Part shown: positions 24,186-26,211 of the stretch, piece after piece
How the letters are laid out: the number at the start of each line of letters is the position of its first letter
Position numbering within the stretch: position 1 is the stretch's first letter
Virus record (IMG/VR): IMGVR_UViG_3300033148_005370
Source of the DNA: a virus
DNA length: 64,000 bases
Strand: one strand, 5' to 3'
Notes under the pieces: generated by a model
Told to the model about the DNA's origin: nothing
What the model saw: the letters and a program-made list of their open reading frames with translations, nothing else
The model's database searches: none
Made by a program: the position numbers and the translations under genes

Positions 24186-24300
24186 CAAAAAAAATGGACG
24201 ACAAAAGGTAGTGAGAGAATTTTACGCGCTCTACCAACTGAGCTACCCCACATCAAATTGTGGGGGCTGGAATCGAACCAGCGGCCTCGTCCTCTTGATG
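24186..24300 (-). ncRNA. Y-RNA-like small RNA unit A with a circularly permuted tRNA-like module
   Basis: Minus-strand order: leader CATCAAGAGGACGAGGCCG, T-arm GCTGG-TTCGATT-CCAGC, CCCCACA, loop ATTTGA, TGTGGGG (7-bp acceptor stem closed by a loop), D-arm TA-GCTC-AGTTGGTA-GAGC, tail ...CTTTTGTCGTCCATTTTTTTT. Leader GGACGA can pair with tail TCGTCC. The module spans 24228-24282. Confidence 0.6.
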
Positions 24301-24303
24301 GAT

Positions 24304-24343
24304 GTACTCCCACAAGGCATTCGTCCAAACTGTAAATCAAAAA
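24304..24343 (-). promoter_or_regulatory. conserved 40-nt promoter-like motif, copy M1
   Basis: Minus-strand consensus TTTGRA-(C)GAATGCCNNNNGGGAG-TACATY. It resembles sigma-70 -35 TTGACA, a 17-nt spacer and -10 TATAAT. It immediately precedes unit A. Confidence 0.45.
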
Positions 24344-24349
24344 CTGAGC

Positions 24350-24465
24350 GACAATAGGTGATGAGAGATCCCCTTTCGGGGTATCACGCCCATTAAGCAA
24401 CAGTGGGCTGGGTTACCAGTTACCCTATGTGCCCATAGTGGGCACACTTAGACTCGAACTAAGAA
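24350..24465 (-). ncRNA. Y-RNA-like small RNA unit A' with a permuted tRNA-like module
   Basis: T-arm-like CTTAG-TTCGAGT-CTAAG (24447-24463), acceptor-like hairpin TGTGCCCA-CTA-TGGGCACA (24428-24446), D-arm-like GGGT-AACTGGTA-ACCC (24410-24425), then GCCCA..TGGGC and CCCCGAAAGGGG hairpins. Confidence 0.5.
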
Positions 24466-24470
24466 TGAAT

Positions 24471-24511
24471 GTACTCCCATCTGGCATTCGCTCAAACAGT
24501 AAATCCAAAAA
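24471..24511 (-). promoter_or_regulatory. promoter-like motif, copy M2
   Basis: TTTGAG-CGAATGCCAGATGGGAG-TACATT on the minus strand, preceding unit A'. Confidence 0.45.
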
Positions 24512-24612
24512 TTTGGAGACAAGAAGCGAAGAAACGTTTGAACTATTGCTCTACCAACTGAGCTACACCCGCCGAAGCGGGAGGCCGGAATTGAACCGAC
24601 GGCCTATAGTGA
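24495..24612 (-). ncRNA. Y-RNA-like small RNA unit B with a permuted tRNA-like module
   Basis: T-arm GTCGG-TTCAATT-CCGGC (24584-24603), acceptor hairpin CTCCCGC-TTCG-GCGGGTG (UUCG tetraloop, 24566-24583), D-arm TA-GCTC-AGTTGGTA-GAGC (24548-24565), T-rich tail. Confidence 0.55.
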
Positions 24613-24615
24613 GAT

Positions 24616-24654
24616 GTAGTTCCTTCAGGCATTCTCCAAAACTAAATTCAAAAG
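24616..24654 (-). promoter_or_regulatory. promoter-like motif, copy M3
   Basis: TTTGGA-GAATGCCTGAAGGAAC-TACATC on the minus strand, preceding unit B. Confidence 0.45.
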
Positions 24655-24802
24655 CGGGAGCCCCCTTATCTCTAAGATATAAGTCTCCGTCTCATAACTA
24701 GATCAGGGGCTCCCTATACATTACACTTATCGTGTGTATTCCGTGTTGAACTCGTACAGGGTTTCGAAACAGACGCAAGGGTTTAGTATCTTCGCGGCTC
24801 AC

Positions 24803-24858
24803 GCTCTATCACTGAGCTACCACGCCATAATGGAGGCGCGGGCTGGATTCAAACCAGC
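24803..24858 (-). ncRNA. permuted tRNA-like module, unit E
   Basis: T-arm GCTGG-TTTGAAT-CCAGC, acceptor CCGCGCC-TCCATTAT-GGCGTGG closed by a loop, D-arm TA-GCTC-AGTGATA-GAGC. Flanking RNA ends not defined. Confidence 0.5.
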
Positions 24859-25057
24859 GCACAGAGCCTATAGTCGCCCTCTACGTTGTCTACTTCCTCT
24901 GCGTTCAATAAGGAAGCTGTGGGAAGCAATACGCGTAAGCGGACTTGGGCTCGGCCTGTCAGGGATTTACCCTGGATGGCTGTCTTTGCCCGACGACACG
25001 GAGACGAACGCGGAATCTGTTCCCAAACTACAAACTGATTTTCAAAGAAGTCAGCAA

Positions 25058-25864
25058 TTACTCGTCTTCTGATCCACCGTGAATGTACTTGAACAGCGAC
25101 TTGCCCACGGCGATCTTCCGTATATCTGTGCTGTTTGCACGCATCCTGGCGCGCTTCACTGCGGCGATCAGCTTGGTGATTCGCTGCAACATCACAGACT
25201 TGGCAGCGGGGGTGATCATTCCGCAGTAAACTTCCTCGGTGAACTCACCGACCGGAATCTGCTCACTCCACTTTTCAACCTGCGCAGGGTGGTGCTGATC
25301 CTGGGGAACCAGAATCTTATGTTCGATGGTCTGCTTCGTTTTTAGCTTTTTGACCGGGGTTGCGTTCCGGAAAACACCTTTGCTGTTGTCTGCCGCTGCC
25401 AGGGTAGTATCCTTTTCCCACTTGACACCCGGCTGCAGGGTGGGAATTGATTCATACACCTTACGCAGCGCCTTCAGTTCCCGCTCCATACCGAGAAAAA
25501 ACGCGGCTGGGAGCCCAGTAGCGATAACGTCATCGTCTACAACTAAATCAGCTTTGGCGTCTTGATTTGTTGCCTCTTTCTGCAGAAACACATCCCACCA
25601 GCGGGTGATGTCTTTCTGGATGTAGCTCAGCTTAGCGCCGACCGTTGTGGTCAACTCTAGATGCTGCTGGTTGGCCTCTTCCAGATGTGCATCGCCATCC
25701 TTAAACATCCTCAAGGTCTTATGTGACCCCATGAAATGGGTTGCCTTATCGGAAAACGTTTTGGTGGCCTCTGTTTGGACCATCTTACTGCGGGCTTCCG
25801 CGTCGTTCATTGCGGCCAAAAGCTCATGCAACTTAGGGGCATTTTTCTTTGCGTCGGTCATTTT
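25058..25864 (-). CDS. hypothetical protein (268 aa from MTDAKKN) inside the small-RNA array
   Basis: Start chosen at the Met with a GAGGAATAAAA RBS. The conserved promoter-like motif copy M7 lies about 60 nt upstream. Confidence 0.5.
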   Translation of the reverse strand, partial: KMTDAKKNAPKLHELLAAMNDAEARSKMVQTEATKTFSDKATHFMGSHKTLRMFKDGDAHLEEANQQHLELTTTVGAKLSYIQKDITRWWDVFLQKEATNQDAKADLVVDDDVIATGLPAAFFLGMERELKALRKVYESIPTLQPGVKWEKDTTLAAADNSKGVFRNATPVKKLKTKQTIEHKILVPQDQHHPAQVEKWSEQIPVGEFTEEVYCGMITPAAKSVMLQRITKLIAAVKRARMRANSTDIRKIAVGKSLFKYIHGGSEDE

Positions 25865-25932
25865 ATTCCTCGTTTCGTGGTTGAAAAGTATTGGAGACAA
25901 GTAATGGCAGAGAGGGGTCATTTCCAATAAAT

Positions 25933-25971
25933 GTACTCCCTGCGCAGGCATTCTCCAAATCTATTTATGCC
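25933..25971 (-). promoter_or_regulatory. promoter-like motif, copy M7 (upstream of the 268-aa CDS)
   Basis: TTTGGA-GAATGCCTGCGCAGGGAG-TACATT. About 60 nt upstream of the RBS and ATG of CDS 25058..25864. Confidence 0.45.
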
Positions 25972-26087
25972 TTTTACAAGAGGCAGGCTGGCCTCGAACC
26001 CAGCAAATAACCACTTTAGGGGTTTGACTTTCCTGACGTACACAGCCCTGCAGAGCCAATATACGCAATTTGTCTACTGCCCCTTGT

Positions 26088-26211
26088 AAAAAACATAAAT
26101 TGAGACGACAAAAGACGAAGAGAAAATTTTTATGCTCTATCCAATTGAGCTAGCCCTCTACTAAGTAGAGGGTGCCGGGCTCGAACCGACATCTTTTCAT
26201 TATCAGTGAAT
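26088..26211 (-). ncRNA. Y-RNA-like small RNA unit C with a permuted tRNA-like module
   Basis: T-arm GTCGG-TTCGAGC-CCGGC (26173-26191), acceptor hairpin CCCTCTAC-TTAG-TAGAGGG (26154-26172), D-arm TA-GCTC-AATTGGATA-GAGC (26134-26153), tail ...CTTCGTCTTTTGTCGTCTCAATTTATGTTTTTT, similar to the unit A tail. Confidence 0.55.

What the first reader, a model, noticed from the sequence alone, without database searches (positions are those of the whole stretch)
24186..26211. Tandem array of Y-RNA-like units carrying circularly permuted tRNA-like modules
At least five units read, on the minus strand, in the same order. First a T-arm (for example GCTGG-TTCGATT-CCAGC). Next a 6-8-bp 'acceptor' helix closed by a 3-8-nt loop, so it is not formed by RNA ends (CCCCACA-ATTTGA-TGTGGGG, CTCCCGC-TTCG-GCGGGTG, CCCTCTAC-TTAG-TAGAGGG, TGTGCCCA-CTA-TGGGCACA, CCGCGCC-TCCATTAT-GGCGTGG). 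Then a canonical D-arm (TA-GCTC-AGTTGGTA-GAGC). Modules are at 24228-24282, 24410-24463, 24548-24603, 24803-24858 and 26134-26191. This is a tRNA permuted at the anticodon position, the topology described for bacterial YrlA Y RNAs. In those RNAs the 5' and 3' ends form the Ro-binding stem and the acceptor is closed. In unit A the leader GGACGA and the tail TCGTCC before a U-run can form such a terminal stem. Several tails share TTTTGTCGTC. Their position directly 3' of rsr fits Rsr-bound Y RNAs, here expanded into a diverse multi-copy array.
Basis: seen in the sequence. Interest (0 to 1): 0.95.

Follow-up and report, generated by a model that had tools for sequence, protein, structure and literature searches.

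The report
Phage Ro60 gene with Y-RNA array
Just downstream of a phage gene for the RNA-binding ring protein Ro60/Rsr lie seven diverged small-RNA genes of the known bacterial Y-RNA type, four of them with a tRNA-like domain. The RNA class is already described, including in phages, so only the copy number and variety are new.

Summary
All five T-arm, closed-acceptor, D-arm modules sit at the stated minus-strand coordinates. Four lie inside complete Y-RNA units with a terminal stem, a GAAUGC internal loop, a second stem and a YUAC motif. Rfam's YrlA model matches these four at E 2e-10 to 4e-6, but below its gathering score. The upstream ORF is a Ro60/Rsr homologue.

The fifth module (24799-24858) sits in a larger RNA that lacks the Y signature. 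A protein gene (DUF7873) interrupts the array.

Across about 150 related units from viral contigs, 93-94% of cells pair, against 61-65% in shuffles, and 30-31 of 32 pairs show compensatory changes. The tertiary 15:48 pair also covaries.

YrlA RNAs next to rsr were described in 2014, in 254 bacteria and 22 phages. What is new is scale: 15 of 79 related viral Rsr loci carry three to six units, and five cultured Rsr phages carry none or one. Verdict: new members of a known kind, moderate interest.

The parts
26502..28058 (-). rsr: a 518-aa Ro60/Rsr (TROVE + vWA) protein, the presumed protein partner of the RNAs
   Evidence: Pfam vWA_Ro60 1.9e-16 and TROVE 6.1e-10. NCBIfam Rsr model aligned over residues 18-503 but far below its cutoff. 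PDB matches to human RO60, D. radiodurans Rsr (residues 16-502), Thermus phage phiLo Ro60 and Xenopus Ro60. 50% identical to the Myxococcus phage Mx1 TROVE protein.
26322..26420 (-). Ya: a Y unit with both Y stems and only a D-arm-like hairpin, with no T arm or acceptor hairpin
   Evidence: My model R1 50.6 bits, E 6e-11. Rfam YrlA 23 bits, E 0.17. Fold z -2.08. Carries the GAAUGCC...GUACAU signature.
26251..26314 (-). Yb: a minimal 64-nt Y unit (stem, CAAAUGC loop, stem, small hairpin), YrlB-like
   Evidence: R1 31.1 bits, E 6e-6, full model span. Fold z -4.65.
26101..26236 (-). Yc: a complete YrlA-type unit. tRNA-like module at 26134-26190, 8-bp closed acceptor, A15:U48.
   Evidence: Rfam YrlA 39.7 bits, E 2.6e-6. 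Fold z -3.26 with the YrlA topology. Arm coordinates.
25963..26100 (-). Z: a 24-bp stem (3 G.U pairs) closing a three-way junction that includes a T-arm-like hairpin (25987-26004). Not a Y unit; role unknown.
   Evidence: MFE -59 kcal/mol, z -6.33, 0 of 200 shuffles fold as well. No Rfam hit. No homologue in the fetched loci.
25890..25959 (-). Yd: a minimal 70-nt Y unit, YrlB-like, ending 29 nt before the DUF7873 start codon
   Evidence: R1 39.4 bits, E 4.6e-8. Signature match. Fold z -3.30.
25058..25861 (-). A protein gene (DUF7873, 267 aa) that interrupts the RNA array. Probably not part of the RNP.
   Evidence: Pfam DUF7873 1.3e-62. A homologue is present in only one related locus, L090.
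24745..25045 (-). X: a roughly 300-nt structured RNA with a T/closed-acceptor/D module (24803-24858) but without the GAAUGC/YUAC Y signature. Followed by a long hairpin plus U-run at 24656-24714.
   Evidence: Rfam YrlA partial match, model positions 30-81, 28.7 bits, E 0.0039. R1 partial, 35.4 bits. The module is 80% identical to the module of a true Y unit in L109:9681-9736. Fold z -3.62.
24512..24640 (-). Ye: a complete YrlA-type unit. Module at 24547-24600, acceptor hairpin closed by UUCG, G15:C48.
   Evidence: Rfam YrlA 52.8 bits, E 4.1e-10. Fold z -2.87.
24344..24495 (-). Yf: a YrlA-type unit whose D stem has changed to GGGU/ACCC, with A15:U48 and two extra hairpins between the D arm and stem 2
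   Evidence: Rfam YrlA 39.1 bits, E 3.9e-6. Fold z -3.86, showing T, acceptor and D hairpins.
24194..24328 (-). Module at 24227-24282, followed by a U8 run.
   Evidence: Rfam YrlA 53.7 bits, E 2.3e-10. Fold. Its closest relative is a unit in another phage contig, L019:6335-6478, at 73%.
23665..24186 (-). W1-W3: three tandem units of about 182 nt from an unrelated, unknown RNA family that directly continue the array. Each has a terminal stem, a conserved hairpin with loop GAUAAGCU, and a U-run.
   Evidence: GGATAAGCTC occurs exactly three times on the minus strand, spaced 181 and 184 nt apart. Alignment. Folds. No Rfam hit and no nhmmer hit in any fetched locus.

Best explanation
The region is a battery of phage-encoded Y RNAs that serve the Ro60/Rsr protein encoded just upstream.

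Each of the seven units has the same chassis: a 7-8-bp terminal stem, an asymmetric internal loop (5' AAUGC(C), 3' YUUG), and an 8-9-bp second stem with a conserved G.U pair. By homology with YrlA and metazoan Y RNAs, this chassis is the Rsr-binding platform.

The second stem encloses a variable effector module.
- In Yc, Ye, Yf and Yg it is a tRNA mimic made of a T arm, a 7-8-bp acceptor-like helix closed by a 3-6-nt loop, and a D arm. There is no anticodon arm and no CCA.
- In Ya it is a partial mimic.
- In Yb and Yd it is only a small hairpin, like YrlB.

Inferred mechanism: the chassis docks on the Rsr ring. The module then tethers Rsr to a partner, or gates access to the ring's cavity. The most likely partner is host PNPase, as shown for D. 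radiodurans, Salmonella and Thermus phage phiLo. tRNA-binding enzymes are another possibility. This would redirect structured-RNA decay or quality control during infection by a phage that also carries 30 tRNA genes.

The units are probably co-transcribed with rsr and cut apart at the conserved U-rich spacers (UUUUGAWUUNAGU). The tRNA-like ones may be further cut by RNase P, as in M. smegmatis.

Shown here: sequence and structure homology, covariation, synteny and strand.
Inferred only: Rsr binding, the partner protein, processing, and the reason for having seven isoforms.
For: - The Rfam YrlA model aligns Yg, Ye, Yc and Yf end to end at E 2e-10 to 4e-6.
- All seven units fold unaided into the two-stem-plus-module shape, z -2.1 to -4.65.
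- RNAalifold on a MAFFT alignment of 8 units gives the same structure, with 17 of 32 pairs compensatory.
- On 49 and 111 related units, 93.1% and 93.9% of cells pair, against 64.5% and 61.2% in shuffles and 38-54% with slid partners. 30 and 31 of 32 pairs carry double changes.
- The Levitt pair is G15:C48 in three window modules and A15:U48 in two, and is obeyed in 19 of 21 units across loci.
- A conserved G.U pair in stem 2 (74 of 87 units) and 3 G.U pairs in element Z mark the minus strand as the functional RNA strand.
- rsr lies 81 nt upstream on the same strand.
- All 111 model hits in 79 other viral Rsr loci are on the rsr strand.
- Literature: YrlA definition and phage occurrence (PMC4201824); phage Ro60 with two Yrl RNAs and host PNPase forming a complex (PMC12135203).
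Against: - No unit reaches Rfam's YrlA gathering score (best 53.7 against 69 bits).
- The exact GNCGAAN0-1G motif is present in only two units, Yc and Yg.
- There are no expression, binding or processing data, and no recognisable promoter or terminator set.
- The closest cultured relative by Rsr, phage Mx1, shows no detectable Y unit, so Rsr of this clade may not always need such RNAs.
- Why seven isoforms are needed is unexplained.
Confidence: 0.82

Rival explanations
1. The tRNA-like modules act mainly as Rsr-independent decoys or sponges. They would soak up host proteins that recognise the tRNA elbow or acceptor/T-arm stack, such as RNase P, modification enzymes or tRNA-targeting defence nucleases. 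This would protect the phage's 30 tRNAs. On this view the Y chassis only stabilises the RNA.
For: - The locus sits inside a 30-tRNA island on the same strand.
- The elbow-forming nucleotides and the Levitt pair are conserved.
- YrlA RNAs are substrates of TruB, DusA and RNase P (PMC4201824).
Against: - Three of the seven units have no full tRNA-like module yet keep the chassis.
- The chassis is the most conserved part and is always linked to rsr on the same strand, 111 of 111 hits.
- The modules lack anticodon arms, so they cannot act as decoys for anticodon nucleases.
Confidence: 0.1
2. The units are cis-acting punctuation. On this view they are tRNA-like and stem-loop processing or termination signals that shape a polycistronic rsr/DUF7873 transcript, not stable trans-acting RNAs.
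For: - Every unit ends in a stem followed by a U-run.
- Units are separated by a conserved U-rich spacer.
- Yd ends 29 nt before the DUF7873 start codon.
- Element Z has a 24-bp duplex that would suit RNase III.
Against: - Punctuation would not need the conserved GAAUGC and YUAC loops, the conserved G.U pair or the Levitt covariation.
- Homologous units flank rsr on either side in other loci without intervening genes.
Confidence: 0.05
3. The modules are ordinary tRNA-derived DNA: junctions of tandem tRNA genes, split or permuted tRNA genes, two-piece tmRNA, or decayed tRNA pseudogenes.
For: A real tandem tRNA-Ala junction in the same window (22289-22363) scores 38.9 bits on my Y model over positions 37-113. 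Such junctions can therefore mimic the module.
Against: - ARAGORN and the Rfam tRNA and tmRNA models find no tRNA halves or tmRNA around any module.
- The acceptor helices are closed by 3-8-nt loops with no discriminator or CCA.
- No anticodon arm exists. It is replaced by the conserved two-stem Y chassis, which covaries.
Confidence: 0.01

Closest known systems
YrlA RNAs (Rfam RF02553; Chen et al. 2014, PMC4201824), found next to rsr in 254 bacteria and 22 phages, including mycobacteriophages of the Bxz1 group
   Same: - Same order of elements: 5' stem, CGAAUGC loop, second stem, YUAY, V region, T arm, closed acceptor stem, D arm, then the 3' strands.
- Same Levitt-pair covariation.
- Same position within 4 kb of rsr on the same strand.
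- Also found in large tRNA-rich phages.
   Different: - Scores stay below the family's gathering threshold (at most 53.7 against 69 bits).
- The C of CGAA is often U or A, with a compensating 3' change.
- There are seven diverged copies, at most 68% identical to each other, rather than the 0-1 detected in the cultured phages I sampled (Cali, Yaboi, Myrna, pv27, Mx1).
S. Typhimurium YrlB and Thermus phage phiLo Yrl1/Yrl2 (PMC4201824, PMC12135203): short Y RNAs without a tRNA-like domain
   Same: Ya, Yb and Yd have the stem, (C)GAA-containing internal loop and stem architecture. They sit beside rsr together with YrlA-type RNAs, as yrlB does in Salmonella.
   Different: Sequence homology to YrlB or Yrl1/2 was not tested, because no model was available. 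Here the short forms share the long forms' full GAAUGCC...YUAC...YUUGUC signature.
Metazoan Y RNA families (human Y1, Y3, Y4 and Y5; from my own knowledge) and nematode stem-bulge RNAs (also from my own knowledge)
   Same: One Ro60 protein is served by several paralogous Y RNAs that share the Ro-binding stem and differ in the loop or effector module. Each RNA ends in a U-run.
   Different: The eukaryotic genes are separate Pol III units and have no tRNA-like domain. Here the paralogues are packed into 2.3 kb of a phage genome.

Membership tests
YrlA (Rfam RF02553 / Chen et al. 2014) | Encoded within 4 kb of a Ro60/Rsr gene, on the same strand | tested here: met
   rsr is at 26502-28058(-). The seven units span 24194-26420(-), which is 81 to 2308 nt downstream.
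YrlA (Rfam RF02553 / Chen et al. 2014) | tRNA-like domain in the order T arm, closed acceptor-like stem-loop, D arm, with conserved tRNA nucleotides | tested here: met
   Present in Yc, Ye, Yf and Yg, and in X. T loops read UUCRANY. D loops carry GG, except in X.
YrlA (Rfam RF02553 / Chen et al. 2014) | GNCGAAN0-1G motif near the 5' end | tested here: inconclusive
   Exact in Yc and Yg (GACGAAUG). Yf has CGAAUG without the first G. Ye and Yd have GGAGAAUG, Ya has GGUGAAUG and Yb has GGCAAAUG. The variable base lies in a stem-1 pair that covaries (CG 57, UA 20, GC 6, AU 4). The invariant core here is GAAUGC.
YrlA (Rfam RF02553 / Chen et al. 2014) | Conserved YUAY at the start of the V region | tested here: met
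   GUAC, CUAC or UUAC in all seven units.
YrlA (Rfam RF02553 / Chen et al. 2014) | Compensatory G15:C48 / A15:U48 Levitt pair | tested here: met
   G:C in Yg, Ye and X. A:U in Yc and Yf. Obeyed in 19 of 21 tRNA-like units across loci.
YrlA (Rfam RF02553 / Chen et al. 2014) | Score at or above Rfam's curated gathering threshold (69 bits) | tested here: not met
   Best scores are 53.7, 52.8, 39.7 and 39.1 bits. There is no YrlA hit at gathering level. E-values are still 2e-10 to 4e-6, so these are divergent homologues that automatic annotation would miss.
YrlA (Rfam RF02553 / Chen et al. 2014) | Bound by Rsr; carries pseudouridine-55 and dihydrouridine; cleaved by RNase P | not testable with these tools
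   Needs co-immunoprecipitation, modification mapping and in vitro cleavage.
Short Y RNAs (YrlB, phiLo Yrl1/2) | 5'-3' stem flanking an internal loop with the CGAA-type motif, no tRNA-like domain, next to rsr | tested here: met
   Architecture of Yb and Yd, and partly Ya. Sequence homology to YrlB itself was not tested.
Canonical, split or permuted tRNA gene | Anticodon arm, discriminator and CCA-compatible 3' end, detection by tRNA models | tested here: not met
   No ARAGORN or Rfam tRNA call at gathering level in 24194-26420. Acceptor helices are closed by loops AUUUGA, UUCG, UUA, CUA and UCCAUUAU, with no CCA.
Permuted (two-piece) tmRNA | Tag reading frame, pseudoknots, match to tmRNA models | tested here: not met
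   No tmRNA from ARAGORN. No tmRNA-family hit at E up to 10 in 23000-28500.

The most novel reading that the evidence does not exclude
One phage Ro60 ring may be programmed by a library of interchangeable Y-RNA adaptors: full tRNA mimics, a D-arm-only form, minimal forms, and the enlarged X RNA. Each would direct Rsr, with a recruited nuclease such as PNPase, to a different partner or substrate. The adjacent Z and W1-W3 RNAs would be further, still unknown members of the same RNP toolkit. The MVP-like protein encoded 10 kb away could conceivably join them in a vault-like particle. Three observations support ancient, maintained diversification rather than recent duplication: the paralogues are deeply diverged, at least one has a closer counterpart in another phage, and arrays recur in 15 of 79 related viral loci.
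Probability: 0.15. Interest if true: 0.7.

Novelty: new member of a known kind. Interest (0 to 1): 0.4.

Why it matters
Ro60 and its Y RNAs are a conserved RNA-surveillance system. They are also a human autoantigen, and their bacterial and phage versions are still poorly understood. This locus shows three things.
- Divergent YrlA-type RNAs escape Rfam's curated threshold, so they go unannotated in large phages.
- A clade of uncultivated large phages, and some MAG contigs, carries arrays of up to six or seven or more diverged Y RNAs beside rsr. In these, a constant Rsr-binding chassis is combined with different effector modules.
- These arrays form a natural mutational series. It could be used to test which module recruits which partner, and whether tRNA mimicry matters for Ro60 function.

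It does not reveal a new kind of system.

Tried and rejected
- DNA-level search of 23900-28100 against GenBank phages found no match.
- An exact-sequence look-up of the Rsr protein found nothing on record.
- The supplementary tables of Chen et al. 2014, which list Y-RNA copy number per genome, and the 2020 Annual Review were not available. The published maximum number of YrlAs per genome could therefore not be checked.
- The first MAFFT alignment of 13 units (A1) misaligned Yf, so I replaced it with an 8-unit alignment and a covariance model.
- Motif scans of viral and genome collections returned mostly single chance hits. Only loci with several hits or an Rsr gene were used.
- A spacer pattern search was too strict to be informative.
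- X was considered as a tRNA-dimer junction or a permuted tmRNA. Both were rejected because there are no flanking tRNA halves and no tmRNA hit.
- The 823-nt stretch 23371-24193 was tested as one large structured RNA and rejected (z -0.85). It resolves into three repeat units plus a tail.
- W-unit homologues were sought with nhmmer in all fetched loci and none was found.
- MVP-like relatives were sought in IMG/VR and none was confirmed. Co-occurrence of MVP-like and Rsr genes in other phages was not established.
- DUF7873 was tested as a conserved partner of rsr and rejected, since it occurs in only one other locus.
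Full report
**Setting**

The window looks like part of a large tailed-phage genome.
- It carries 30 tRNA genes, all on the minus strand between 5405 and 29612.
- It carries replication genes: ribonucleotide reductase, family-A DNA polymerase fused to UDG, RecA, a DnaB-like helicase and SbcC-like genes.
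- It has no DNA-level match in GenBank phages.
- ORF 26502-28058(-) encodes a 518-aa Ro60/Rsr homologue. Pfam gives vWA_Ro60 1.9e-16 and TROVE 6e-10. There are full-length alignments to D. radiodurans Rsr, human and Xenopus Ro60 and Thermus phage phiLo Ro60.
- Its best GenBank phage relative is the TROVE protein of Myxococcus phage Mx1, at 50% identity.

**Checking the observation**

Each is a 5-bp T stem with a UUCRANY-type loop, followed directly by a 7-8-bp helix closed by a 3-8-nt loop, and then UA plus a 4-bp D stem with a GG-containing loop.

Four modules (Yc, Ye, Yf, Yg) lie inside units with a common frame. The frame is a 7-8-bp terminal stem, GAAUGCC, the 5' strand of a second stem, YUAC, a variable region, the module, the 3' strand of the second stem, YUUGUC, the 3' strand of the terminal stem, and a U-run.

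The composite signature GAATGCC-N-GG-NNN-TACAT occurs six times, all on the minus strand between 24302 and 26414, against zero in shuffles.

At its curated threshold Rfam reports only tRNAs. In E-value mode the YrlA model (RF02553) aligns end to end:
- Yg: 53.7 bits, E 2.3e-10
- Ye: 52.8 bits, E 4.1e-10
- Yc: 39.7 bits, E 2.6e-6
- Yf: 39.1 bits, E 3.9e-6
- the 24803-24859 module, partial match: 28.7 bits, E 0.004
- 26320-26419, weak match: 23 bits

I built a covariance model from eight units of this window and related contigs. It finds seven full-length units in the window and nowhere else in the 64 kb:

| Unit | Coordinates (-) | Type |
|---|---|---|
| Ya | 26322-26420 | D-arm-like hairpin only |
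| Yb | 26251-26314 | minimal, CAAAUGC loop |
| Yc | 26101-26236 | full tRNA-like module |
| Yd | 25890-25959 | minimal |
| Ye | 24512-24640 | full tRNA-like module |
| Yf | 24344-24495 | full tRNA-like module |
| Yg | 24194-24328 | full tRNA-like module |

- The other hits are junctions of real tandem tRNA genes. This is the false-positive class already noted by Chen et al. 2014.
- All seven units fold on their own into the same two-stem-plus-module shape, with z from -2.1 to -4.65.
- The array is not purely tandem. A bona fide protein gene (DUF7873, E 1.3e-62) sits at 25058-25861.
- The fifth module (X) is embedded in a roughly 300-nt structured RNA (z -3.6). X lacks the GAAUGC/YUAC signature, yet its module is 80% identical to that of a genuine Y unit in another viral contig. 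I read X as an enlarged, divergent derivative. Whether it binds Rsr is open.

**Comparative evidence**

Motif and protein searches of IMG/VR and of genome assemblies recovered many loci encoding Rsr proteins 40-63% identical to this one. Units with the same signature but different stem sequences lie beside these genes.

| Measure | 49 units | 111 units from 79 further viral Rsr loci |
|---|---|---|
| Cells forming standard pairs | 93.1% | 93.9% |
| Same, column shuffles | 64.5% | 61.2% |
| Same, partners slid 1-3 columns | 38-54% | 38-54% |
| Pairs with compensatory double changes | 30 of 32 | 31 of 32 |

- No shuffle out of 500 reached the observed values.
- These alignments are fitted to the model, which inflates pairing somewhat. 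However, an independent MAFFT/RNAalifold run on eight units gave the same structure, with 17 of 32 pairs compensatory.
- The tertiary Levitt pair covaries. It is G15:C48 in Yg, Ye and X, and A15:U48 in Yc and Yf. It is obeyed in 19 of 21 tRNA-like units overall.
- A G.U pair in stem 2 is conserved in 74 of 87 units, which points to function at the RNA level on this strand.
- All 111 hits lie on the rsr strand.

**Copy number**

With the same model and threshold, the 79 related viral Rsr loci (flanks of 6 kb) carry these numbers of units:

| Units per locus | 0 | 1 | 2 | 3 | 4 | 5 | 6 |
|---|---|---|---|---|---|---|---|
| Number of loci | 38 | 16 | 10 | 7 | 2 | 3 | 3 |

- The window has 7.
- A looser pattern scan suggests about 10 units in one contig (L109).
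- Five cultured Rsr phages gave one unit (mycobacteriophage Cali), a weak one (Streptomyces phage Yaboi) or none (Myrna, Vibrio pv27, Mx1).
- Zero counts may partly reflect the model's limited reach into divergent loci.
- The window's units are at most 68% identical to one another over model columns. Yg is closer to a unit in another contig (73%) than to any sibling. The array is therefore old and diversified, not a recent duplication.

**Comparison with what is known**

- Chen et al. 2014 (PMC4201824) defined YrlA by exactly these features. They reported 355 candidates in 254 bacteria and 22 phages, and showed Rsr binding, tRNA-type modifications and RNase P cleavage for some.
- Salmonella also has the short YrlB.
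- Thermus phage phiLo Ro60 binds two short Yrl RNAs and host PNPase (PMC12135203).
- The jumbo-phage survey (PMC7824862) notes TROVE proteins with a tRNA-like partner.
- The Mx1 genome note and a 2026 myxophage survey do not mention Y RNAs.

The kind is therefore known, including in phages. The units here are divergent new members that fail Rfam's gathering score. The size and heterogeneity of the array are, as far as I could check, undescribed. I could not read the 2014 supplementary tables.

**Mechanism (inferred)**

- The constant chassis is the Rsr-binding platform.
- The variable module tethers Rsr to a partner or gates its cavity. The partner is PNPase by analogy, or tRNA-binding enzymes.
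- The units share a U-rich spacer (UUUUGAWUUNAGU), and no promoter or terminator pattern separates them. I therefore favour co-transcription with rsr followed by endonucleolytic processing.
- None of this is shown here.

**Rivals**

- Rsr-independent tRNA decoys are unlikely as the main role, because three units lack the full module yet keep the chassis.
- Pure cis-acting punctuation does not explain the conserved loops and the tertiary covariation.
- tRNA dimers, permuted tRNAs and tmRNA are refuted. There are no flanking tRNA halves, no CCA, no anticodon arm and no tmRNA hit.

**Surroundings**

- Between Yc and Yd lies element Z (25963-26100). It has a 24-bp stem with three G.U pairs closing a three-way junction that includes a T-arm-like hairpin (z -6.3).
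- Directly after Yg come three tandem units of about 182 nt, W1-W3 (23665-24186). Each has a covarying terminal stem, a conserved hairpin with loop GAUAAGCU and a U-run. They have no Rfam match and no homologue in any fetched locus.
- Ten kilobases away, ORF 13738-16353(-) matches the major-vault-protein shoulder and repeat domains. It is 41-42% identical to ORFs in three huge uncultured phages, but Mx1 has no counterpart. MVP-like proteins are known in myxobacteria and other gliding bacteria (PMC3762200). A link to the TROVE protein is speculation.

**Verdict**

The units are new members of a known kind, and the array size is an unusual but not unique feature of this phage clade. Interest is moderate.

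Noticed in passing
window 13738-16353 (-): An 871-aa ORF matches the Major Vault Protein shoulder domain (3.6e-23) and a vault repeat (1.2e-6). It lies in the same tRNA island as the TROVE/Ro60 gene. It is 41-42% identical to ORFs in three huge uncultured phages (LR756500, LR756501, LR756503), has no counterpart in Mx1, and no relative was confirmed in IMG/VR. No link to Rsr or the Y RNAs is established.
   Followed up: partly
window 23665-24186 (-): Three tandem units of about 182 nt (W1-W3) directly continue the RNA array. Each has a covarying terminal stem, a conserved hairpin with loop GAUAAGCU (GGATAAGCTC exactly three times, spaced 181 and 184 nt) and a U-run. There is no Rfam hit and no homologue in about 320 fetched loci. 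This is an unknown small-RNA family.
   Followed up: partly
window 25963-26100 (-): Element Z is a 24-bp stem with three G.U pairs closing a three-way junction that contains a T-arm-like hairpin (25987-26004). Its fold has z -6.3. It may be an RNase III-type processing site or another RNA partner. Its role is unexplained.
   Followed up: partly
window 22289-22363 (-): The junction of two adjacent tRNA-Ala genes scores 38.9 bits on the Y-RNA model over positions 37-113. The order there is T arm, paired acceptor strands, D arm. This suggests how YrlA-type modules could arise from tandem isoacceptor tRNA genes.
   Followed up: no
window 24190-26450 (-), between units: A conserved U-rich spacer of about 13-20 nt (consensus UUUUGAWUUNAGU) precedes most Y, X and W units. 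It overlaps the U-run of the preceding unit. It could be a shared processing signal.
   Followed up: partly
window 5405-29612 (-): 30 tRNA genes lie on one strand. The rsr/Y-RNA locus is embedded among them, with tRNA-Pro genes about 450 nt upstream of rsr.
   Followed up: no
L122 (Myxococcus phage Mx1, OR576727) 8650-9290: Mx1 is the closest cultured relative by Rsr (50%). It shows no detectable Y unit. Two short 'hypothetical protein' CDSs are annotated immediately after its TROVE gene, where Y RNAs would be expected.
   Followed up: partly
L121:3629-4086 (+): A related 165-kb viral contig has a sub-threshold match to the permuted tmRNA model (40.4 against 47 bits) about 2 kb upstream of its rsr. 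No tmRNA was found in the window.
   Followed up: no
L123, L131, L175, L211 (Pyrinomonadaceae MAG contigs); L168, L197: Contigs binned into bacterial MAGs carry Rsr proteins 47-63% identical to this one, flanked by 2-9 Y-like units. L175 has the units, but no Rsr gene lies in its fetched stretch. These are either phage contigs mis-binned into MAGs, prophages, or a hint to the host range.
   Followed up: partly
L109:9923-10248 (+): A 326-nt unit with the Y chassis encloses several T-arm-like hairpins and a D arm. Enlarged composite Y RNAs therefore exist in this clade, which gives a precedent for X.
   Followed up: no
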